IMG/VR virus record: IMGVR_UViG_2875722834_000006
Length of the DNA stretch: 42,851 nt
Strand: one strand, 5' to 3'
DNA from: a virus
Lineage: Duplodnaviria; Heunggongvirae; Uroviricota; Caudoviricetes
Shown here: one piece after another, positions 1,601 to 33,154 of the stretch
How the letters are laid out: the number at the start of each line of letters is the position of its first letter
How positions within the stretch are numbered: position 1 is the first letter of the stretch
The notes under the pieces: model-generated
Told to the model about the DNA's origin: nothing
Databases searched by the model: none
Seen by the model: the letters and a program-made list of their open reading frames with translations, nothing else
Program-made: the position numbers and the translations under genes

Positions 1601-2017
1601 CTATATTGGCATCTCAGGCCAGACAGGGTTGGCTGAGTCAACCTTTGTCAATGCATAGCGATATTTCTGCCACGCCGTGAGTTTTGGCTTATCTGCATCA
1701 TCAATATAGTCACCATCAAAAGCATCCTTAAGTGGGTCAATAATATGTGTTGCATATGCGATAAGAGATGATTTTTTTGACACCGCATCTGCTTCAAGTT
1801 CTTCTGGCGTACGTGGTGGTATTTCACCCCATGTTGGCATGCCGTCATTGCCTGCGATGCGCACTAATCCATCAACGGTTCGATCCTGAGTGAACGCAGT
1901 AAATTGCTCAGTAGTTACGTCAATCAGGTCAGACAGATCCCAACCCGCATCTTCATAATTCCCCAGCTCAGCAGTACGGAAAAATGCATTGTTCTTAGCG
2001 CTGTATTGATATGTCAT
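1601..2017 (-). CDS. tfa: Tail fibre assembly protein (P2 gpG / Mu U-like chaperone)
   Basis: C-terminus VDSANPVWPEMPI matches the conserved tail-fibre-assembly C-terminal motif; start taken at MTYQYSAKNNAFF (ATG 2015-2017) directly after the fibre stop. Confidence 0.75.
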   Translation of the reverse strand: MTYQYSAKNNAFFRTAELGNYEDAGWDLSDLIDVTTEQFTAFTQDRTVDGLVRIAGNDGMPTWGEIPPRTPEELEADAVSKKSSLIAYATHIIDPLKDAFDGDYIDDADKPKLTAWQKYRYALTKVDSANPVWPEMPI

Positions 2018-25640: not shown

Positions 25641-25810
25641 AGATCCGTAAGCGTAACTCTGATAGGCTCACTATGCTTTTGCGCTAAAGCAGTGGGCCTT
25701 GGTTAGCTTGTGACCTGTAAGCATGAGCTGATGGTTGGTCGGGTGCTACAACACCCACCAGCCGCCCATTCCACAGCAAAACTCCTCCATATTGAAGGAA
25801 CGAAGGCGTA

Positions 25811-25850
25811 AAAAAGCCCTGATTTTCAGGTCAGGGCATTTTTAATAAAA
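25811..25850 (-). terminator. Intrinsic terminator hairpin (GCCCTGA...TCAGGGC) with T/A runs on both sides
   Basis: Stem 25816-25822/25831-25837; minus-strand U-tract directly after stop of 25859..26758. Confidence 0.6.
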
Positions 25851-25858
25851 TCTGAAAT

Positions 25859-26758
25859 TTACGCGTTTCCAGGAGGGACATGCCAGACTCTTCGGCCATC
25901 CTCATGGTTCTCGATAATCTTGGCTGCTGTACTGCCACCAAAAGTGTGCATATAGCTATGATGTATCGTTAACACAATATCTTGTAATGCCTGATCTGCT
26001 TCCATCGGTATGATTTTCAAACCAATTTGGCTAGCTTTATCACTGTGAATATGACGTGCATGAGCAAAAGTTGAACTGTGGTTATTCAGGCTTGAACAAA
26101 TAGCTTCAGCCTTTTGCTGGGCATCTGGATCCCCATCAAACATACCAGTAATTAGCCATTCACTGACAATTGTTGTTGCCCATTGGATTGCCTTTTCACA
26201 CTCACCAATGAACGTCGGATTGAGTTTAGACAGTGTAAATTGCCAATACGCAGCAGTCGCAGGGTTTTTAATAATATCTTGCATAGCCTTCTGCGCTTCT
26301 TCAATCACGCCATGTGCTGGCACGCCACCGATTTGGGGATCGAAAGGACCGATATTTGATTGTTTCCCCATGATGATTTCTTTTGCACAACAAGCCAACA
26401 TAGTCCCTGCTGACATAGATATCATGGGGACAAAAGCACGGATATCGTTACCGAACTTAGCTCTCAAGTAATAACCTATCGATTCTAAGGCGGCGATATC
26501 CCCACCAGGTGTATGCAAAATGAGATCAAGCCCCTTCGTGGCATCGAGCCCATGAACCGCTGTCATGAATCCATTTTTATCATCATCAGACATAGTGCAT
26601 AAATGCGAGCTATTCTGAAGGAACCCCGAGTAGTACGCAATGACGTTACGTCCGGTCATCTGCGACATCTCTTTGATATATTTGCTTCTTACTGTGTCTA
26701 GGGGGCTTTTTTGGGCGAGGACTGCAACCTCGCCCATAACATGATTCCAATTAGGCAT
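25859..26758 (-). CDS. Clp-fold serine peptidase (SDH / S49-S14-like family), cargo gene
   Basis: LILHTPGGDIAA and MISMSAGTMLA motifs resemble ClpP/SppA fold; low GC; separate from head protease. Confidence 0.55.
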   Translation of the reverse strand: MPNWNHVMGEVAVLAQKSPLDTVRSKYIKEMSQMTGRNVIAYYSGFLQNSSHLCTMSDDDKNGFMTAVHGLDATKGLDLILHTPGGDIAALESIGYYLRAKFGNDIRAFVPMISMSAGTMLACCAKEIIMGKQSNIGPFDPQIGGVPAHGVIEEAQKAMQDIIKNPATAAYWQFTLSKLNPTFIGECEKAIQWATTIVSEWLITGMFDGDPDAQQKAEAICSSLNNHSSTFAHARHIHSDKASQIGLKIIPMEADQALQDIVLTIHHSYMHTFGGSTAAKIIENHEDGRRVWHVPPGNA

Positions 26759-26772
26759 TGTTCATCTTATTG

Positions 26773-26982
26773 TTAGTATGAATACAGTTGGTACGATGCA
26801 TTTCCTTGTTGATTGTAATCAACATTTTCCAGGTGAGAACCTGTCGAATAAATCACACCTTTTTGCCCAGAACCAACTGATGAGGTACTCATTACTCTGC
26901 GACCAAAATCAGTTGCTGTTTCGTTTGGCAAAAATTCTGCGGGGGTGATACCAAAATCGTCATAAAGCTGGTTTATGTTCAT
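26773..26982 (-). CDS. Small hypothetical protein (69 aa), translationally adjacent to peptidase
   Basis: ATG at 26982 with GGAGAG RBS; 14-nt gap to peptidase start; low GC. Confidence 0.4.
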   Translation of the reverse strand: MNINQLYDDFGITPAEFLPNETATDFGRRVMSTSSVGSGQKGVIYSTGSHLENVDYNQQGNASYQLYSY

Positions 26983-27064
26983 GGCTGCGCTCTCCAACAA
27001 ACTACATGTAGTAAAAAAACAACTTCGGCACACAACATGTAGATTTCACTAAGGGATAGATACG

Positions 27065-27086
27065 AAAAAACCTCCCAAGTGGAGGT
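27065..27086 (-). terminator. Intrinsic terminator (CCTCC-CAAGT-GGAGG plus U6 on minus strand)
   Basis: Stem 27071-27075/27081-27085 followed by TTTTTT on minus strand. Confidence 0.65.
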
Positions 27087-27292
27087 CAAGATTGCTTTAG
27101 TTATGCGCTAAATATGGTCTGAACATACGTTATATGCAATCTTTTTTGCACAGATTAGTGGTGTTTCTCGGAGATTTCTTGACTTTTTTTGTTGTAAGTG
27201 CAGCTTAACAACAAATTCCTATGAATGTATAAACAGTATCTTTTTATGTTGTTATGGTCGCCGGGTAATCCCATCCACTTAGTACGTGAAAA

Positions 27293-27318
27293 TGAAAAAC
27301 CCGCTCGCTGGCGGGTTT
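27293..27318 (-). terminator. tR'-like intrinsic terminator downstream of Q-like gene
   Basis: Stem CCCGC/GCGGG (27300-27304/27311-27315) with U-tract on minus strand about 100 nt after Q stop. Confidence 0.55.
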
Positions 27319-27410
27319 ATATACTCATGGCAACATATCAAATTAGCTTTAAATATCGCTTATTTTGTTGCATTTTGCAAGCCTGATTGAAGACGTTAGT
27401 GAAATTTACT

Positions 27411-28103
27411 TCACATTTCTACCACTTTCGCTTCTTCATACTCTTCGTACCGCGCCAGGCTTTCACATAACGCCACGCTGTCCATTTCCACGAAAGCTGC
27501 TTTAAATGCTGTCCAGTGAGCAGCGTATACCCTTAGCCAAGTTGAACGCTCCACGCTCACCATGCGGGCCAGTGCAGCCCCCGCATACTCCTGGTACGTA
27601 TCGTTATTGCGTGATGCCGCAACTTCCTGGGCCGCGAGCCAGACCAACCCCACTAATTTTTTTGTGACTCTGTCTTGGAGCTTCTTACTCCCCTGCTGAT
27701 GCTGAAACTGTGCCCAAACGTACTGGCACATTAACGTCTGGTACCGGAAAGACAGGTCATACCCATAGCAATACCTCACCCATGCCTGCAAATGCTCCCC
27801 CAGACCATTCACCGAACGACGCCATGCTGAACAAGCGAACTCCGTATCCTTAATAGGCGGTAAAGGTCGACGACGGCTCCTTGTCTCAAGAACATAAAGT
27901 GGAGTGGCCAGCGTTTTTACAACCTTGGATCCACAACCTTCCCCACCCTCCATGATGATTTCAGGATGGTGCCGGGGGTATTTGTTCTTATCTGCTGGTG
28001 GATGCTCACTGAACGCCTGCAGCTGTCCTTTTGTCGATCCTGATAAATCCGCCAGCGCGCGGCGCAGTTCAATCCGTGTAAATTCCAGTTCTTGTAAATT
28101 CAT
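27411..28103 (-). CDS. Late-gene antiterminator Q-like protein
   Basis: Position immediately upstream of promoter/terminator region preceding lysis genes; family assignment from memory of Q-family prophage proteins, not verified. Confidence 0.45.
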   Translation of the reverse strand: MNLQELEFTRIELRRALADLSGSTKGQLQAFSEHPPADKNKYPRHHPEIIMEGGEGCGSKVVKTLATPLYVLETRSRRRPLPPIKDTEFACSAWRRSVNGLGEHLQAWVRYCYGYDLSFRYQTLMCQYVWAQFQHQQGSKKLQDRVTKKLVGLVWLAAQEVAASRNNDTYQEYAGAALARMVSVERSTWLRVYAAHWTAFKAAFVEMDSVALCESLARYEEYEEAKVVEM

Positions 28104-28124: not shown

Positions 28125-29186
28125 TTACGCTTTTGTTATTACGCCGATCGCCAGCGCTCGATTCATAAATCGGAATAGCAGCTCCAGCTGGGTACCGTGT
28201 TTTTTCTCGAACGCTGCAACATCAGCATGTAATTTGTCGTGACACTCTCTGCACAGAGGGATCACGAACAAATCGTGGGCTTTAGTGGCGGTACCGCCCA
28301 TGCCGTGACCAATGACATGGTGTGGATCATCCGCTGGCCGCCGGCAACCTTCACAGGGCTGGGTTTTAGCCCACCGGGTATAGTCCTCATTCACCCACCT
28401 GCGGTGTTTTGGGCGCAACATGAATGATTCAGGGGATTCAGGATCCGCATGCAGAGCCAGAACCTGTGGCTGGTCATAGGCCACTTCCTGATTTGTTCCA
28501 TGCTTTAAATGCGCAGCCGTGACCGCAGGGGTGACCTTCTTCTGCAAAATGTTTTTTGTCGGTGGCATCGGCACAATGTCACTTTCGCGATATACGGATA
28601 AAAACGGCTCATCCGGTAAGCGAAGCGCATGCTGGGCCATCCTTTCCGTGATTGCATCAGCAATGCCTGAGTAAACGGCCCACCAGCACAATTCACCGAG
28701 GGATAGTTCACGCTCGTTGTTGTAGCCAAGCGAAGACAGGATAGAACTGATCAGCCAGTTAATGAGATTACGCCGGGCCAGTTCTGCCAGCGCCGCGGTG
28801 GTTTGCTCGCGCAGCTGGTTATCGCAATGCCAACAGAGCAACATTGATCCAGGGGGATGTCGCATCGTTACCAGCTCATGATGGTGATAATTAGTGTGCG
28901 GGTACTGGCATTCCTTCACGTTACGCTCTAGCCAGGATTCCAACCCGGACAAACCGCCTGCTGCACGGATAACTCTCTCGTCGGTGAAGAATTCCTCGAG
29001 GGACTTATCTTCTGCCAGCGGCTGCCGGGCATCAGGGACGAGCCCCGACGGAAGCCCAGCCATGCTTTTTGGCTGAGGCTCCACCAGCACACGCCCCTGT
29101 TGAAACAAAGACATCAGTTCGCTACCCGGCTTTAACAGCACAAGCCCAAGGCGCGGAACAGTCTCGGCTGTAAACAGTCCTCTCAC
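28125..29186 (-). CDS. DUF968-like protein with C-terminal HNH-type Cys/His motif
   Basis: C-terminal HHVIGHGMGG...CRECHDKLH motif; GTG start overlapping upstream stop; typical location near Q in lambdoid prophages. Confidence 0.5.
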   Translation of the reverse strand: MRGLFTAETVPRLGLVLLKPGSELMSLFQQGRVLVEPQPKSMAGLPSGLVPDARQPLAEDKSLEEFFTDERVIRAAGGLSGLESWLERNVKECQYPHTNYHHHELVTMRHPPGSMLLCWHCDNQLREQTTAALAELARRNLINWLISSILSSLGYNNERELSLGELCWWAVYSGIADAITERMAQHALRLPDEPFLSVYRESDIVPMPPTKNILQKKVTPAVTAAHLKHGTNQEVAYDQPQVLALHADPESPESFMLRPKHRRWVNEDYTRWAKTQPCEGCRRPADDPHHVIGHGMGGTATKAHDLFVIPLCRECHDKLHADVAAFEKKHGTQLELLFRFMNRALAIGVITKA

Positions 29187-29875
29187 GCGGCATGCCCCTT
29201 AGCGATGTGTGCCGTCCACAGGCCGCCGATCCACTCGATGCCTTTGGGTGTAAAACGTGCCTGGCTAAAGGCGTAGTTTGTTTCGCTCGTAGTGCCAGTT
29301 TTCACTTCAAACCGCCCGGCAGCAATGTGCTGGTGCCGAGGTGTCAGCACTCCACTGAGCCGGTACAAAATGCCGCTCTCAATGAGGAACAAGCGGAAAT
29401 CGGTCTCTTTGGCCTGCAACAGCTTTGCCACCTGGCGGAAAGACATTGAGCCTTTGGCAGTACAATATCGATCGACAAACTCAACTTTCGGCGCGGCAGC
29501 GGCTAACTGCTGGCTGAGTTGTTCTTTCTGCTCGGCCAGATCCGCGGCGAGACGTAATGCCTCCGGCAATGTTTGCGGGACACTTACGGCCTGGCTGTTC
29601 TCCAGCTCTTGCCAGCGATCGACAACAGCGGCGGTAAATTCTGGCGACAGCCTGGCGACGATCACCAGAGAATCACGTTTGTTAAACCAATACTCCTCGT
29701 AGGTTTGCCCGTTTTGCGGGTGTGTGTAGGGGGTGTGCGCCAACGGCGCGGTTAAAATACCAGCAGATGCAAGGCGCTCAGCTGAGCGCTTCACATCACC
29801 ATGTTTGCTCTGCACCAGCCTGGCAATTTCACGGCTGGACATTGTCACAACACCCTTAGCGGTTAACTGATTCAT
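29183..29875 (-). CDS. Rha-family phage regulatory protein / antirepressor (KilA-C/ANT C-terminal domain)
   Basis: N-terminal VTMSSREIARL...KHGDV motif of Rha family; start at ATG 29875 with GGAG RBS. Confidence 0.7.
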   Translation of the reverse strand: MNQLTAKGVVTMSSREIARLVQSKHGDVKRSAERLASAGILTAPLAHTPYTHPQNGQTYEEYWFNKRDSLVIVARLSPEFTAAVVDRWQELENSQAVSVPQTLPEALRLAADLAEQKEQLSQQLAAAAPKVEFVDRYCTAKGSMSFRQVAKLLQAKETDFRLFLIESGILYRLSGVLTPRHQHIAAGRFEVKTGTTSETNYAFSQARFTPKGIEWIGGLWTAHIAKGHAA

Positions 29876-29889
29876 GCTATTTCTCCATA

Positions 29890-31827
29890 TCAGGCGGCTG
29901 CACCCGCCTTTTGATTTGCACATAATTCAGGAAGATTTGCTTCTACCAGCGCACGAGCGAACGGCGGCGGTACTGCGTTACCACAGCGCGCTACCTGCTT
30001 GTCTTTGGCGTAACGATTGCCGCGATAGTCCTGATCGATAACGTAGCCGTCAGGGAAGCCCTGCGCCTTATAAAGCTCATGCGGTTGCAGCATGCGCATT
30101 CCGATATCGACGATCTGGTACTTAACCCCCTCGATCGTCACCAGCCATTCATCCTCGCTATCACCGCAGTAGGTTTCGAGGAATGTCCGGACCTCGCCAA
30201 CGTGCTGGCCACCAGCGGTAATCGTCGGCATAGGTGTATCCATGGTCTGACCGTCGCGGCAGGTTCCGCGCAGCTTCACCAGGTGCGACGCAACTACCGC
30301 GTGGTGATCAACAGTAGTGACTGAGTGGGCAGGCTCATCCATACCAACACCCGGCCCCGTGTAATTCCCACCATAGTGCTTCGCCAGGAACGCGCTCACC
30401 GTTGCAAACTTATTACCACCAGCAGTGACCGTGCCGAGCGGGTTATTCAGTTGAAGAACACGCGGTTCTTGCCCTGGGCGTTCGCCGTACCCCATCTGGA
30501 TCAGTGTTGGAGTTACCAGCTGCGACTTACCGCCACCACCTGCAGTAATCGTCGCACTCGGTTCGTCAGCCCTGTGCCCAACACTGGCTCCAAACTGGCG
30601 GGCGATGACCGGCGCAACCACGCACGCGCGGGACTGCTTGAGGATTGTATGAGCGGGTTTATCCAGCGGGCGCGGCTTTGCCTGGTACTCACTGCCGCCA
30701 TTGCCAGCCAGGAACGGTGTCAGGGCGGCCTCAACTACGCCAAGCGCATGCCCATTCCCGCCCGGGCGCGCCGACGTACCAGCGGTGACAGTTGGTACCG
30801 GCTCGGTCACTGGCTGCCCGGTGGCCCCGGTGCGGAATTTAGTAAGATGCGGTACCGCCAGTGCGTAGCCATGCTTTTTAGTGATGGTCTGCAATGGCTC
30901 TAACAACGATTGCCCGCGGAAACAGTCATAACCTCCTTTCGTCGTGGTGTGGTTACACTTCACGATGAAAGGTGATGCGCTTTCGATAACAAAGCGCTGG
31001 ATGCCGCGCGCGATACGTTTGAGCGTATTTTCCGCCAGCGGCTTTTTGCGGTCGAAGATGGACCGGGCCGGGATATTCCAGTCAATGCACTCCGCCGCGG
31101 TACGCCATGGCGCCAGCTTGCCGCTTTGTACTTCCAGTGATTTTGGATCCCCATGAGTCGCTTCAGGCCAATGAATCTTGCGGCCGTCACAGCGCATGAC
31201 CATGAAGAAACGCTTTCTGATCGTCGGCGCGCCGTAGTCACATGCGCGCAGCTCCCGATAATCAACCTCATAACCAAGCCCGGCGATCAGCTGTTGCGCC
31301 TGCTGGCCGTGCGGCTCAATGGCAAGGAATTCACAAACCTCAGCCAGCGCAGGGTGATTCGCCGCGATCCCCGTCGACAGCATGCCGACAAATGCCTCGA
31401 ATGTTTCGCCAGCACGCTCAGGATCTGGGCGTAATTCTTCATCCAGCAGCGGGCCCCATGTCTTAAACTCTTCGACGTTCTCCAGCATCATGACGCGGGG
31501 ACGTACTGCCAGCGCCCAGCGCAGGACAATCCACGCCAGCCCGCGAATCTCTTTCTTAACCGGCTTAGCGCCCTTCGCCTTGGAAAAGTGGCGGCAGTCA
31601 GGGCTAAACCAGGCCAGACCGACAGGTTTACCGCTGGTGGCTGCGCTTGGGTCAACGTCAAACACCGACTCGCAATAATGCAGCGTGTCAGGGTGATTCG
31701 TCTTATGCATCGCAATAGCGTTTTCGTCGTGGTTGATAGCGATATCCACGCTACGCCCGATCGCCAGTTCAATGCCGGTACTCGCGCCGCCGCCACCAGC
31801 AAAGTTATCAACGATAATTTCACGCAT
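29890..31827 (-). CDS. DNA (cytosine-5)-methyltransferase with extended, internally repeated variable region
   Basis: Motif I FAGGGG, PC motif (SPDCRHFS), ENV (MLENVEEF), motif VIII (YGAPTIRKRFFMV), motif X (GNAVPPP); four T(I/V)TAGG-containing modules between VIII and IX. Confidence 0.85.
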   Translation of the reverse strand: MREIIVDNFAGGGGASTGIELAIGRSVDIAINHDENAIAMHKTNHPDTLHYCESVFDVDPSAATSGKPVGLAWFSPDCRHFSKAKGAKPVKKEIRGLAWIVLRWALAVRPRVMMLENVEEFKTWGPLLDEELRPDPERAGETFEAFVGMLSTGIAANHPALAEVCEFLAIEPHGQQAQQLIAGLGYEVDYRELRACDYGAPTIRKRFFMVMRCDGRKIHWPEATHGDPKSLEVQSGKLAPWRTAAECIDWNIPARSIFDRKKPLAENTLKRIARGIQRFVIESASPFIVKCNHTTTKGGYDCFRGQSLLEPLQTITKKHGYALAVPHLTKFRTGATGQPVTEPVPTVTAGTSARPGGNGHALGVVEAALTPFLAGNGGSEYQAKPRPLDKPAHTILKQSRACVVAPVIARQFGASVGHRADEPSATITAGGGGKSQLVTPTLIQMGYGERPGQEPRVLQLNNPLGTVTAGGNKFATVSAFLAKHYGGNYTGPGVGMDEPAHSVTTVDHHAVVASHLVKLRGTCRDGQTMDTPMPTITAGGQHVGEVRTFLETYCGDSEDEWLVTIEGVKYQIVDIGMRMLQPHELYKAQGFPDGYVIDQDYRGNRYAKDKQVARCGNAVPPPFARALVEANLPELCANQKAGAAA

Positions 31828-33154
31828 TGACGGCCCCCTGCATGCTGTTGAAGAGACCACCAGCGGTCGTGATAATTTCACTCGTCGGCATACGTTCGAG
31901 CCACAGCTGGTTGATATTGGCTTTCAGCTTGTTCTGCTGCGAAACAGGTAGAGCGTCAGCCCCTTCAATCTGGTTAAACACCAGTCCAACCTCAAGAGGC
32001 CAAACGCGCGATTCGTTTAACGCCTTGTCCTTTGATTCCTGCGTCTCACGGACATGGGCGCGGATCCCCCGAATATTTGACCATTTGGCTTTATCCAGGC
32101 TTTCCATGGTCGCGATGAATTCACTGTGGTTAATGCCGTATTCTTTCGCAGACTCAACGGCAACCGTGCGTAACCGCTCTGACATGTCTTGTTTCACGTC
32201 ATCGCTATCAAAGGGCAATGTTTCCAGCCATGCATTAACACCCACCAGGATGCTCTCGCTGATCAGCTTTTTCGCTCTGTCGATCGTCAGCGGTGAAACA
32301 TTGGTAAATTCAGGGTTTTCCAGAGAGTCGGCAGCCCAGGTATGACCAAACTTTGACTCGCTGAAGGTGTACTCGTCTTTCTTGCCGAACGCCGCGACAA
32401 CACAGGCCCAAGCCTCTACACCGCTGGTTTCCAGAATGGCTTTTTGGGTTAATGGCAGTTCTGCCTCTGATTTCTCCGGCACTACCTCAGCGTCCAGCTC
32501 CGGCGCCGCATCAGTTTGCGTTCTTCCCACGGCAAATTGGGCCAGCGACATCGCAGCACGGCCTTTGGCCTCCAGGTCGGTGCGGTTGATGTAACTGAAA
32601 CGCTCACCCCGCCATGTTTTGTCGAAGACCACGATAGCGCCAGCAAAAAATGCGCTGGTGGGCTGCTGCTTTTCGTCTTTCGGCACGAACCATGTAGGAA
32701 GATCGAAACCAATTCGGCCACGGATGAATGTGACGTGATCTGCCTCTACCGGCCACCACGTTTCACTCGTCGCAGACTTAATGAGAAAAACGTACCGACC
32801 ACCCTTTTCTCGCATGGCCATAGCGTGGTTAATGATGTGGGTCATTCCGGTAACGGCCTGCTTGTCGTGGTACTGAGAGCGGCTGTAAGGCGGGTTGCCA
32901 AACCCGGCACCACCGAGTTCTGCCAGCCGCTCTGACCAATCCTGCATCAGGGCATTATCTTCAGCCGTGTACCATGCTGGGCACTTCGCGTTGCTGTCGT
33001 CGGCAAAAAGGTCCAACACCAGAGGGCCGAACATCGCATTGATCCCCCAAAACAACAGATCCGGAGTGCGCCATTGATCACCGACCTCTTTCAACTCGTG
33101 TGCTGGTTTTGAACGGAGTTCAGCCAGTGCACGGCAGTATTTATTTTCCATCAT
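31820..33154 (-). CDS. Phage-type DNA N6-adenine methyltransferase (Dam family) with about 250-aa C-terminal extension of unknown function
   Basis: N-terminal DQWRTPDLLF and NPPYS motifs characteristic of phage Dam family; long uncharacterised C-terminal half. Confidence 0.7.
   Translation of the reverse strand: MMENKYCRALAELRSKPAHELKEVGDQWRTPDLLFWGINAMFGPLVLDLFADDSNAKCPAWYTAEDNALMQDWSERLAELGGAGFGNPPYSRSQYHDKQAVTGMTHIINHAMAMREKGGRYVFLIKSATSETWWPVEADHVTFIRGRIGFDLPTWFVPKDEKQQPTSAFFAGAIVVFDKTWRGERFSYINRTDLEAKGRAAMSLAQFAVGRTQTDAAPELDAEVVPEKSEAELPLTQKAILETSGVEAWACVVAAFGKKDEYTFSESKFGHTWAADSLENPEFTNVSPLTIDRAKKLISESILVGVNAWLETLPFDSDDVKQDMSERLRTVAVESAKEYGINHSEFIATMESLDKAKWSNIRGIRAHVRETQESKDKALNESRVWPLEVGLVFNQIEGADALPVSQQNKLKANINQLWLERMPTSEIITTAGGLFNSMQGAVNA

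What the first reader, a model, noticed from the sequence alone, without database searches (positions are those of the whole stretch)
27061..27410. Q-downstream region with two successive intrinsic terminators separated by about 200 nt of ORF-poor AT-rich sequence
Seen: minus-strand hairpin/U-tract terminators at 27293..27318 and 27065..27086; promoter-like hexamers (TTGCAA ... TATTTA on minus strand) between the Q-like stop and the first terminator. Established: lambdoid late promoters (pR') give a short terminated RNA that Q-modified polymerase reads through. Inference: first terminator is tR'-like; the second may define an additional short transcript (possible small RNA or 36-codon peptide) or insulate the cargo insert.
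Basis: partly seen in the sequence, partly recalled or inferred. Interest (0 to 1): 0.4.

Follow-up and report, generated by a model that had tools for sequence, protein, structure and literature searches.

The report
Phage late terminator plus cargo terminator
The first hairpin is the usual stop signal a lambda-like prophage places just after its late promoter. The second is a separate stop signal belonging to an inserted two-gene cargo cassette that has its own promoter, so the arrangement is real but largely ordinary.

Summary
Both minus-strand terminators are present at the stated coordinates, and the about 200 nt between them is AT-rich (34% GC against 51% for the window) and non-coding.

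**Terminator 1** (stem 27318..27297) is the tR' of a Q82-family late control module.
- The Q gene is PF06323.
- The region from the Q stop to the terminator aligns without gaps to phage 434 (Q82-like) pR'. It has TTGCAA, a 17-nt spacer, GATATT, an extended -10-like pause element TGATATGTT followed by GCC, and then the terminator.
- The module is conserved in 36 other aligned distinct sequences from more than 55 related phage loci. Homology stops exactly at the terminator.

**Terminator 2** (stem 27087..27069) does not belong to the phage backbone. It lies in the 5' leader of a roughly 1.4-kb mobile cassette, in this order:
- sigma70-type promoter
- about 40-nt RNA ending at terminator 2
- two conserved palindromes
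- 69-aa ORF
- SDH/ClpP-like protease
- 3' terminator

The same cassette, with its leader, sits behind all three Q families, behind lysis genes, and in P4-like elements. Its stems carry compensating changes. Other cargos in the same slot have no 5' terminator.

The most likely role is a promoter-proximal attenuator that Q-modified polymerase bypasses. This role is inferred, not shown. The 36-codon peptide reading is rejected.

The parts
27411..28103 (-). Q antiterminator gene, Q82 family
   Evidence: PF06323, E = 1.7e-40. 33.5% identical to phage 82 Q and 32.5% to phage 434 Q, over 92% of its length. RefSeq annotates it as antitermination protein Q.
27352..27380 (-). Late promoter pR': -35 TTGCAA (27380..27375), 17-nt spacer, -10 GATATT (27357..27352)
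   Evidence: Aligns without gaps to phage 434 TTGCAA-17-TATACT. CTTGCAAAA and ATATTT are invariant in 37 aligned sequences. It occurs once in the window.
27329..27345 (-). Predicted start (+1 at about 27345/27344) and sigma70-dependent pause element: extended -10-like TGATATGTT (27340..27332) followed by GCC (27331..27329, which would be +15 to +17). The predicted pause at +25 is at about 27321.
   Evidence: Same register as phage 434 TGGTATGTT. PMC5001585 describes an extended -10-like element, GCC at +15 to +17 and a pause at +25 for 82 pR'. TAATTTGATAT..TG.CA is nearly invariant in A2. The start and pause positions are inferred, not mapped.
27290..27318 (-). Terminator 1 = tR' (stem 27318..27297 plus a U-rich tail). 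Predicted RNA of about 50-55 nt.
   Evidence: A terminator sits at this place in all 22 representative relatives and is annotated there in phage 434. Homology with related phages ends at 27295/27289.
27241..27289 (-). Junction between the phage backbone and the cassette, not conserved
   Evidence: Identity to other cassettes is 0.23-0.26, about random. It is not shared with empty-site phages.
27135..27240 (-). Conserved 5' region of the cassette: LexA-box-like CTGT-N8-TCAT (27236..27221), block GTCAAGAAATCTCCGAG (27183..27167), and inverted repeat TGCAA-N6-TTGCA (27150..27135) over the -35
   Evidence: Function unknown.
27104..27139 (-). Cassette promoter: -35 TTGCAT (27139..27134), 17-nt spacer, -10 CATATT (27116..27111), predicted +1 at about 27104
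   Evidence: In 23 of 25 distinct leaders the best -35/-10 pair falls at the homologous position, with up to 10 of 12 matches (TTGCCA-18-TATATT, TTGATA-18-TATATT). In the window the homologous pair ties with another candidate at 7 of 12. The -10 block is 80% conserved.
27065..27087 (-). Terminator 2 (stem 27087..27069, U6 at 27070..27065). It ends an RNA of about 40 nt from the cassette promoter.
   Evidence: A hairpin plus T-run lies 105-109 nt upstream of the small-ORF ATG in 20 of 25 leaders, with freely varying loops. 97.6% of cells are paired, and 3 of 7 pairs carry changes on both sides.
27002..27042 (-). Two copies of the palindrome CTACATRTAG(TG), at 27042..27033 and 27011..27002. Either operator-like sites or the arms of an RNA hairpin in the mRNA leader.
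   Evidence: Present in 25 of 25 leaders with a spacing of 31-32 bp. These are the only copies in the window.
26773..26982 (-). 69-aa cargo ORF (SD GGAG at 26995..26992), ending in YSY
   Evidence: Conserved protein (alignments A3 and A6). phrog_25714. The AlphaFold model is low-confidence, with two short helices.
25859..26758 (-). SDH-type ClpP-like serine protease (cargo)
   Evidence: PF01972. phrog_11747. No PADLOC match. No PDB relative by sequence.
25808..25837 (-). Terminator at the 3' end of the cassette (two-way hairpin 25837..25816)
   Evidence: 19 of 22 related cassettes have a strong terminator 15-25 nt after the protease stop.
25781..25801 (-). Weak backbone hairpin plus T-run upstream of the DNA methyltransferase gene
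   Evidence: The counterpart GCCTCC.AGATCC.GGAGGC|TTTCTG is present in empty-site phages.

Best explanation
The region holds two independent transcription units placed end to end by a cargo insertion.

**Unit 1: the prophage's late control module, Q82 type**
- A promoter that is presumably active during lysogeny, as lambda and Stx-phage pR' are (-35 at 27380, -10 at 27357), starts an RNA at about 27345.
- Polymerase is expected to pause near +25 at a -10-like element (27340..27329).
- Without Q it stops at terminator 1, giving an RNA of about 50-55 nt.
- With Q it becomes resistant to terminators.

**Unit 2: a mobile cargo cassette inserted directly behind tR'**
- Its own sigma70-type promoter (27139..27111) starts an RNA at about 27104.
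- That RNA meets terminator 2 after about 20 nt, so most transcripts should end as an RNA of about 40 nt.
- Only the fraction that reads through goes on to the 69-aa ORF and the protease.
- A terminator at the cassette's 3' end (25837..25816) keeps cassette transcription out of the methylase and lysis genes.

**After induction**
- Q-modified polymerase from pR' must read through terminators 1 and 2 and the 3' terminator to reach the lysis genes.
- The cargo is therefore also transcribed late.

**What is shown and what is inferred**
- Shown: the anatomy, the homology, and the conservation of each element, plus the fact that terminator 2 travels with the cassette.
- Inferred: promoter activity, start sites, termination efficiency, Q read-through, and the attenuator role.
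For: **T1 as tR'**
- Q is PF06323 and related to the 82 and 434 Q proteins.
- The region aligns without gaps to the annotated phage 434 Q82-like region, including its annotated terminator.
- The extended -10-like element followed by GCC fits the published 82 pR' pause anatomy (PMC5001585).
- Promoter and pause element are nearly invariant in 37 sequences.
- A terminator is present at this place in all 22 representative relatives, in at least three stem versions.
- Homology to relatives, including empty-site phages, ends at 27295/27289 and resumes at about 25788.

**T2 as part of the cassette**
- The same leader lies upstream of the small ORF and protease in 25 distinct versions.
- These sit behind Q82-, Q-lambda- and Q21-family Q genes (the three families are defined in PMC9388147), behind lysis genes, and after a P4-alpha-like primase.
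- A hairpin plus T-run lies at a fixed distance (-105 to -109 from the ATG) in 20 of 25 leaders, with loops free to vary.
- 97.6% of cells are paired and 3 pairs carry compensating changes.
- The -10-to-T2 block is 80-84% conserved, as high as the best protease segments.
- A promoter sits at the homologous place in 23 of 25 leaders.
- A 3' terminator is present in 19 of 22 related cassettes.
- Cassette GC is 39-45%, against 51% for the backbone.
- Other cargos in this slot have no 5' terminator.

**Precedents**
- The greA leader terminator stops two-thirds of transcripts and yields 40-60-nt RNAs (PMC2836576).
- pR' is always active and is terminated at tR' during lysogeny (PMC7547250).
Against: - There are no transcript data for this locus.
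- In the window both promoters are mediocre matches to consensus (8 of 12 and 7 of 12), and the simple scan did not flag either.
- A promoter that fires into a terminator 20 nt away looks wasteful. The strong sequence conservation of the unpaired 5' tail and of CGTATCT after the U-run goes beyond what a plain terminator needs. This suggests an added function: a regulator site, a regulated attenuator, or an active RNA.
- 5 of 25 leaders lack a canonical terminator at that position (L135, L136, L140, L142, L143), so termination is not indispensable to the cassette.
- Compensating changes in T2 come from only a few lineages (L133, L064, L145).
Confidence: 0.65

Rival explanations
1. The cassette promoter plus terminator 2 is a small-RNA gene in its own right. 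The product would be an RNA of about 40 nt with a 17-nt unpaired seed, a terminator hairpin and a U-tail (the usual Hfq-type anatomy). It would act in trans on host or phage mRNAs, or serve as a third component of the cargo system.
For: - The unpaired 5' tail ATAACTAAAGCAATCTT is almost unchanged between enterobacterial and Pseudomonas cassettes, whose proteases are about 68% identical at the DNA level.
- The anatomy is seed plus hairpin plus U6.
- Precedents exist. StxS arises from the pR'-tR' transcript (PMC7547250), and GraL overexpression changes transcription of over 100 genes though no direct target was found (PMC2836576).
Against: - The tail is not conserved in the more distant cassette groups (L133, L064, L145, L309, L318), where it varies in length from 12 to 27 nt.
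- Complementarity to its own mRNA is no better than for shuffled tails, and the best sites differ between cassettes.
- There is no Rfam match.
- Host targets were not testable.
Confidence: 0.15
2. Terminator 2 is a regulated attenuator. A cassette-encoded or host factor, or an infection signal, would suppress termination so that the protease operon is switched on only under particular conditions. This would resemble type III toxin-antitoxin loci, where a terminator between the RNA gene and the toxin gene sets their ratio.
For: - The sequence of and around T2 is conserved beyond the stem.
- Conserved palindromes lie directly downstream, and an inverted repeat lies over the -35.
- The cassette sits in cargo slots of prophages and satellites, next to superinfection-immunity and Acb2/Tad1-type genes. 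This fits a tightly controlled, possibly toxic cargo.
Against: - The about 40-nt RNA has no alternative (antiterminator) pairing, because its 5' tail has no complement to the stem (read from the sequence).
- There are no tandem repeats.
- No RNA-binding or DNA-binding domain was recognised in either cargo protein.
- There is no PADLOC match.
Confidence: 0.15
3. Terminator 2 is a backup or insulating terminator of the phage's late operon. It would have been selected in this phage to catch polymerases that leak through tR', as with the second terminator-like hairpin downstream of lambda tR'.
For: - Lambda has a second GC-rich hairpin plus T-run about 290 nt after tR' (sequence read). Tandem late terminators in lambda were reported by Luk and Szybalski in 1983; this is from my own recollection and was not checked here.
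- In this window T2 necessarily adds a second barrier in front of the lysis genes.
- The backbone also carries a weak hairpin at 25801..25781.
Against: - T2 has its own conserved promoter directly upstream.
- It is found with the cassette where no Q or pR' exists, for example after a P4-like primase and after lysis genes.
- 21 representative relatives with other cargo or an empty slot have no terminator about 200 nt after tR'.
Confidence: 0.05
4. The stretch across terminator 2 encodes a 36-codon peptide (27089..26979).
For: An uninterrupted TTG-started ORF exists in the window.
Against: - The frame contains stop codons or is shifted in all 7 related leaders examined.
- Loop length differs by single nucleotides between cassettes.
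- No ribosome-binding site is evident by reading.
Confidence: 0.01

Closest known systems
pR'-tR' late control region of phage 82 and phage 434 (Q82 family)
   Same: - The Q gene is of the same Pfam family.
- The -35 is TTGCAA with a 17-nt spacer.
- The extended -10-like pause element (TGNTATGTT) sits in the same register.
- An AAACCCGC...GCGGGTTT-type terminator gives a short leader RNA.
   Different: - Q is only about 33% identical.
- The -10 is GATATT, not TATACT.
- The Q-binding element is not defined.
- Nothing has been tested biochemically.
Lambda late leader: tR' followed by a further terminator-like hairpin before gene S
   Same: Two hairpin plus T-run signals lie a few hundred nt apart, between pR' and the lysis genes.
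   Different: - In lambda both belong to the phage backbone, and no promoter sits between them.
- Here the second has its own promoter and belongs to an inserted cassette.
GraL, the greA leader terminator of E. coli (PMC2836576)
   Same: - Promoters are followed within tens of nucleotides by an intrinsic terminator.
- Most transcripts end as RNAs of about 40-60 nt, and the read-through fraction is the mRNA.
- The stem is conserved among relatives.
   Different: - GraL lies in a chromosomal housekeeping gene. This one lies in a mobile cassette.
- Termination efficiency here is unknown.
StxS, the sRNA made from the pR'-tR' transcript of Stx phages (PMC7547250)
   Same: It is a short, terminated RNA made constitutively downstream of a lambdoid Q gene. 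This shows such by-products can acquire functions.
   Different: - StxS is processed from a 258-nt transcript of a different Q module.
- No Hfq binding or target is known for either short RNA here.
Phage morons (PMC3594210)
   Same: - It is an independent transcription unit with its own promoter and terminator.
- Its GC content is lower than that of its surroundings.
- It is present or absent between otherwise collinear phages, and lies in the Q-to-lysis slot, as stx does.
   Different: It has an extra terminator between the promoter and the genes, plus conserved palindromes in the leader.
Type III toxin-antitoxin loci (ToxIN type); recalled from my own knowledge, not checked here
   Same: The order is promoter, short RNA segment, intrinsic terminator, protein gene.
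   Different: - There are no tandem RNA repeats.
- The downstream genes encode a small protein and a protease, not an endoribonuclease.

Membership tests
Q82-type late control module (Q, pR', pause element, tR') | A Q gene of Pfam PF06323 immediately upstream | tested here: met
   PF06323, E = 1.7e-40. The family definition is in PMC9388147.
Q82-type late control module (Q, pR', pause element, tR') | A sigma70 promoter just after the Q stop, homologous to 82/434 pR' | tested here: met
   Aligns without gaps to phage 434. The hexamers are invariant in 37 sequences. Promoter activity was not tested.
Q82-type late control module (Q, pR', pause element, tR') | A -10-like pause element with an extended -10 TG in the early transcribed region, a GC-rich triplet at +15 to +17, and a pause near +25 | tested here: met
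   TGATATGTT followed by GCC at 27340..27329, in the register of phage 434 and of the description in PMC5001585. This is sequence only; pausing itself was not tested.
Q82-type late control module (Q, pR', pause element, tR') | An intrinsic terminator a few tens of nt downstream | tested here: met
Q82-type late control module (Q, pR', pause element, tR') | A Q-binding element and Q-dependent read-through | not testable with these tools
   Needs footprinting or in vitro transcription with the Q protein. The conserved TTGCAAAATGCAA (a direct repeat of TGCAA) is only a candidate site.
Intrinsic (Rho-independent) terminator: T2 | A GC-rich hairpin directly followed by a U-run | tested here: met
   A 7-bp stem, a 5-nt loop and U6. 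-10.3 kcal/mol.
Intrinsic (Rho-independent) terminator: T2 | Pairing kept across relatives while the sequence changes | tested here: met
   97.6% of cells are paired, 3 of 7 pairs change on both sides, and slid controls reach 31-70%. Loops vary freely. Few independent lineages contribute.
Intrinsic (Rho-independent) terminator: T2 | Transcripts actually end there | not testable with these tools
   Needs 3' end mapping.
Moron (independent transcription unit added to a phage genome) | Own promoter and own terminator flanking the gene or genes | tested here: met
   A promoter is conserved at the homologous place in 23 of 25 leaders. A 3' terminator is present in the window and in 19 of 22 relatives.
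Moron (independent transcription unit added to a phage genome) | Present or absent between otherwise collinear phages, with different base composition | tested here: met
   Empty site of 70 nt in Flotzy, L007, L010, L053 and L055 (72 nt in L030). GC is 39-45% against 51%.
Hfq-type trans-acting sRNA | A conserved single-stranded seed with a matching target | tested here: inconclusive
   The seed is conserved in the closest cassette versions aligned (about 12 of the 25), not in the distant ones. Its own mRNA is not a target. Host targets were not tested.
Type III toxin-antitoxin locus | Tandem repeats of the antitoxin RNA upstream of the terminator | tested here: not met
   No tandem repeats in 26900..27420.
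Known anti-phage defence systems (PADLOC) | Cargo proteins match a defence-system model | tested here: not met
   No match for the protease or the 69-aa protein.
Any curated RNA family (Rfam 15) | A covariance-model match at or near the gathering score | tested here: not met
   No match at gathering score in the window. Only chance-level hits on T1 (STnc370 at 22 bits against a 54-bit cutoff; Trp leader at 21 against 41) and none on T2.

The most novel reading that the evidence does not exclude
The promoter, the about 40-nt RNA ending at terminator 2, and the tandem palindromes may form a conserved multi-layer lock on an uncharacterised two-gene system (69-aa protein plus SDH/ClpP-like protease). 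That system moves between the cargo slots of lambdoid phages and P4-like elements.

In this reading the short RNA or the terminator is a working part of the system. It could be a regulator or partner RNA. Alternatively it could be a switch opened only by terminator-resistant polymerase or by loss of a palindrome-binding factor. The cassette would then be a new kind of prophage-borne exclusion or abortive-infection module.
Probability: 0.15. Interest if true: 0.6.

Novelty: new member of a known kind. Interest (0 to 1): 0.3.

Why it matters
- **Annotation.** The first unit can be labelled as a Q82-family late promoter, pause site and terminator. This family is the least studied of the three Q families and has no solved structure. 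The 37-sequence alignment shows which bases of its promoter and pause region never vary, which gives a candidate Q-binding site.
- **Method.** Two terminators in a row behind a Q gene need not be one regulatory device. Here the second was brought in by a cargo insertion.
- **Biology.** The cargo cassette is an uncharacterised unit that moves between phages and satellites. Its leader is unusually well conserved. If it proves to be an exclusion system, the leader is where its control should be sought.

Tried and rejected
- **Rfam.** The search at gathering score over the window, and at E up to 10 over 26700..27500, found nothing credible.
- **Exact-pattern scans for the T2 3' half.** The viral scan returned the same cassettes plus one unrelated phage terminator (L179).
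- **Base-pairing of the T2 RNA tail with its own mRNA.** No better than shuffled controls.
- **36-codon ORF.** Broken in relatives.
- **Tandem repeats (type III TA idea).** None found.
- **Covariation count on T1 across the family.** Not meaningful, because the relatives carry at least three non-alignable stem versions. I report presence at the same position instead.
- **DNA-binding fold in the 69-aa protein.** The AlphaFold model has mean pLDDT 64, two short helices and a disordered remainder, so it is uninformative.
- **Palindromes as RNA hairpin or DNA operators.** G-U outnumbers A-C mismatches 26 to 13 (p = 0.05, sequences not independent). This is not decisive.
- **Second promoter between T2 and the ORF.** No conserved -10 with A2 and T6 was found by reading the 25 leaders.
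- **Upstream antiterminator pairing.** 27282..27274 pairs with the T2 loop and arm. It lies in the non-conserved junction, so I treat it as chance.
- **Lambda terminators.** The simple scan misses even lambda tR', so the lambda comparison rests on reading the sequence.
- **Literature on SDH-type proteases in phage defence.** Nothing relevant.
Full report
**1. Observation**

Genes in this part of the window run on the minus strand.
- T1: AAACCCGCCAGCGAGCGGGTTT, stem 27318..27297, followed by TTCATTTTCA.
- T2: GACCTCCACTTGGGAGGTT, stem 27087..27069, followed by TTTTCGTATC.

The 3.5-kb region holds 11 such sites, against 3.2 +/- 2.0 in shuffles. Folded alone:

| Terminator | Free energy | z-score | Shuffles folding as well |
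|---|---|---|---|
| T1 | -12.0 kcal/mol | -3.6 | 0 of 200 |
| T2 | -10.3 kcal/mol | -2.2 | 6 of 200 |

- The 209 nt between the stems are 34% GC, against 51% for the window.
- They hold only a 39-codon ORF that starts in sequence not shared with any relative.

**2. The first unit is a Q82-family late control module**

*The Q gene*
- The upstream ORF (27411..28103) matches Pfam PF06323 at E = 1.7e-40.
- It is 33.5% identical to phage 82 Q and 32.5% to phage 434 Q over 92% of its length.
- PF06323 is the Q82 family, one of three unrelated Q families (PMC9388147).

*Alignment to phage 434.* The phage 434 record marks its Q as Q82-like and annotates a terminator just downstream. The two sequences align without a gap:

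| Phage | -35 | Spacer | -10 | Next 6 nt | Early transcribed region | Terminator |
|---|---|---|---|---|---|---|
| 434 | TTGCAA | 17 nt | TATACT | TCATGC | AAATTTGGTATGTTG | AAACCCGCTGCCGAGTGGGTTTTTTTT |
| window | TTGCAA | 17 nt | GATATT | TAAAGC | TAATTTGATATGTTGCC | AAACCCGCCAGCGAGCGGGTTTTTC |

*Fit to published 82 pR'.* PMC5001585 describes:
- a -10-like pause element with an extended -10 motif
- a GCC triplet at +15 to +17
- a pause at +25

In the window, TGATATGTT followed by GCC (27340..27329) fits that description if transcription starts at about 27345. That puts +25 at about 27321 and gives an RNA of about 50-55 nt ending in the T1 U-run. The start, the pause and Q action are inferred from homology. 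They were not measured.

**3. This unit belongs to the phage backbone**

- A search with the Q protein brought in 55 viral contigs. Searches with the DNA of 26700..27500 brought in named phages (Flotzy, Eeyore, LLS, phiNP and others) and E. coli prophages.
- In all of them, similarity to the window runs from Q to 27295 or 27289, the end of T1. It resumes at about 25788, upstream of the DNA methyltransferase gene.
- In a 37-sequence alignment, CTTGCAAAA, ATATTT and TAATTTGATAT..TG.CA are invariant or nearly so.
- All 22 representative loci have a terminator at this place, in at least three stem versions: AAACCCGC/GCGGGTTT, GACCCGCT/GGCGGGTT and AACCTCGC/GCGGGGTT.

**4. The slot between tR' and the methylase gene is a cargo slot**

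- It is 70-72 nt in six phages (Flotzy, L007, L010, L053, L055 and L030).
- It holds 280 to 1,540 nt of various unrelated sequences in the others.
- The window's content (27294..25789) recurs in three viral contigs at 97-99% identity and in three E. coli genomes that are 100% identical over 26700..27500.
- None of the other cargos has a terminator near its 5' end. The two-terminator pattern is therefore not a property of this Q family.

**5. The second terminator belongs to a mobile cassette**

*Finding relatives*
- Searching with the SDH-type protease (PF01972) found divergent copies in which similarity to the window begins upstream of T2, at 27238 to 27088.
- Searching with the 69-aa protein and fetching its contigs added more.

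*Contexts.* There are 25 distinct leaders. They lie:
- behind Q genes of all three families: PF06323, PF03589 and PF06530
- behind the lysis genes, in front of terminase genes (L133, L135, L136, L145, L309-L315, L318-L320)
- after a P4-alpha-like primase, next to a superinfection-immunity-family gene in Klebsiella (L305-L308)
- beside a umuC-type gene (L140)

*Common plan*
- A sigma70-type promoter. In 23 of 25 leaders the best -35/-10 pair falls at the homologous place, with up to 10 of 12 matches. In the window it is TTGCAT, a 17-nt spacer and CATATT, at 27139..27111.
- A short A/U-rich tail of about 17 nt in the closest leaders (12-27 nt across those measured).
- A hairpin plus T-run 105-109 nt upstream of the small-ORF ATG in 20 of 25 leaders, with loops that vary freely.
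- Then two palindromes, a Shine-Dalgarno sequence, the small ORF and the protease.
- Finally a strong terminator 15-25 nt after the protease stop, in the window and in 19 of 22 relatives.

*Conservation of T2*
- On a 12-sequence alignment of T2, 97.6% of cells are paired and 3 of 7 pairs show changes on both sides. With the partner slid by 1-3 columns, pairing is 31-70%.
- The block from the -10 hexamer through T2 (27120..27061) is 80-84% identical across ten cassettes. That is as high as the best-conserved protease segments and higher than the small ORF.
- The cassette's GC content is 39-45%.

The cassette is therefore a self-contained transcription unit, a moron in the sense of PMC3594210, with an unusual extra terminator between promoter and genes.

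**6. Mechanism**

*What follows from established knowledge*
- pR' is constitutively active and terminated at tR' in lysogens (PMC7547250).
- Q-loaded polymerase is termination-deficient (PMC9388147).
- After induction, Q-modified polymerase starting at about 27345 must therefore pass T1, T2 and the 3' terminator at 25837..25816 to reach the methylase, holin and lysozyme genes. The cargo is thus transcribed late as well.

*What is inferred for the lysogen*
- The cassette promoter makes an RNA of about 40 nt ending at T2, and a minority of transcripts read through to give the cargo mRNA.
- The nearest documented analogue is the greA leader, where an intrinsic terminator stops two-thirds of transcripts and yields 40-60-nt RNAs (PMC2836576).
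- The 3' terminator keeps cassette transcription out of the lysis genes.

*Confidence by step*

| Claim | Confidence |
|---|---|
| T1 is tR' | about 0.9 |
| T2 belongs to the cassette | about 0.9 |
| T2 is a plain attenuator | about 0.55 |

**7. What does not fit a plain attenuator**

- The unpaired tail and the CGTATCT after the U-run are conserved more than a terminator requires.
- Five leaders lack a canonical terminator at that position.

I tested the following alternatives:
- **Pairing with its own mRNA.** The tail does not pair with its own mRNA better than shuffled tails do.
- **Tandem repeats.** There are none.
- **Known RNA families.** There is no Rfam match.
- **36-codon ORF.** The ORF across T2 is broken in 7 of 7 relatives.
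- **Cargo protein domains.** Neither cargo protein shows a nucleic-acid-binding domain, and neither matches a known defence system.

A trans-acting sRNA and a regulated attenuator remain open rivals, at about 0.15 each. A phage-selected backup terminator is largely excluded by the comparative data.

**8. Comparison with what is known, and verdict**

- Unit 1 is a new member of the Q82-type pR'-tR' kind.
- The tandem appearance has a precedent in lambda. The sequence there shows tR' and, about 290 nt further on, a second GC-rich hairpin with a T-run before gene S. Tandem late terminators in lambda are also something I recall from Luk and Szybalski (1983); I did not check that here.
- Unit 2 is a moron with a promoter-proximal terminator, comparable to the greA leader.
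- The finding is real and now explained in outline, but largely ordinary.
- The part that deserves further work is the cassette and its strongly conserved leader.

Noticed in passing
window 27042..27033 and 27011..27002 (minus strand): Two copies of the palindrome CTACATRTAG(TG) lie 31 bp apart, between terminator 2 and the ribosome-binding site of the 69-aa ORF. They are present in all 25 cassette leaders with a spacing of 31-32 bp, and are the only copies in the window. They are either a pair of operator sites or the arms of an RNA hairpin. The G-U to A-C ratio of 26:13 does not decide it.
   Followed up: partly
window 25859..26982 (minus strand), and loci L062-L064, L131-L148, L163, L301-L321: The 69-aa protein (C-terminus YSY/YTY) and the SDH/ClpP-like protease form a conserved pair. 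It moves between three cargo positions: after Q, after the lysis genes, and after a P4-alpha-like primase. It sometimes sits next to Imm_superinfect or Acb2/Tad1-hairpin genes. It matches no PADLOC model, and no literature was found. It is a candidate exclusion or defence cargo of unknown function.
   Followed up: partly
window 27236..27221 (minus strand); L137 and L305 at the same relative place: A LexA-box-like CTGT-N8-TCAT lies about 100 nt upstream of the cassette promoter. The same position is a perfect CTGT-N8-ACAG in L137 and ATGT-N8-ACAG in L305. This may be a decayed or variant SOS box. It was not scored.
   Followed up: no
L133, L142 and L143 (cassette promoter spacer); weaker versions in L064, L145 and L309: A consensus DnaA box (TGTGGATAA) lies inside the 17-18-nt spacer of the cassette promoter in some relatives. 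The window has only a degenerate version (GTATGTTCAGA).
   Followed up: no
window 27150..27135 (minus strand): The inverted repeat TGCAA-N6-TTGCA overlaps the -35 of the cassette promoter and is conserved in the closer cassettes. The cassette promoter and the Q82-type pR' also share TTGCAA..(C/G)ATATTTA(G/A)nGC. In Pseudomonas locus L063 both read TTGCAAAA...CATATTTAGC. Common descent, convergence and chance were not resolved.
   Followed up: partly
window 27294..25789, and loci L002-L061: The slot between tR' and the DNA methyltransferase gene is a hotspot of variable cargo in this phage family. It runs from 70-72 nt (empty) to about 1.5 kb and holds several different unrelated inserts.
   Followed up: partly
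window 25801..25781 (minus strand); Flotzy L002 at about 1868..1893: A weak hairpin plus T-run belonging to the phage backbone lies just upstream of the methylase gene, also in phages with an empty slot. Between pR' and the methylase gene the window therefore carries four successive minus-strand terminator-like signals.
   Followed up: partly
window 27362..27380 (minus strand): TTGCAAAATGCAACAAAAT contains a direct repeat of TGCAA spanning the -35 and the spacer of pR'. It is nearly invariant in the 35 enterobacterial sequences of the alignment, though the two Pseudomonas-type sequences differ after TTGCAAAA. It is a candidate binding site for this Q family, whose binding element I could not define.
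   Followed up: no
window 27396..27409 and 27039..27052: A 14-nt inverted repeat (13 of 14 matching) has one arm just after the Q stop and the other just after terminator 2. The cassette arm is not conserved in other cassettes, so this is probably chance.
   Followed up: partly
window 28125..31881 (minus strand): Upstream of Q lie a DUF968/HNH-like protein, an Ant-type antirepressor and a DNA cytosine methyltransferase. The identical RefSeq prophage also annotates an N6-adenine methyltransferase just upstream. With the methylase downstream of the cargo, that makes three methyltransferase genes in this prophage.
   Followed up: no
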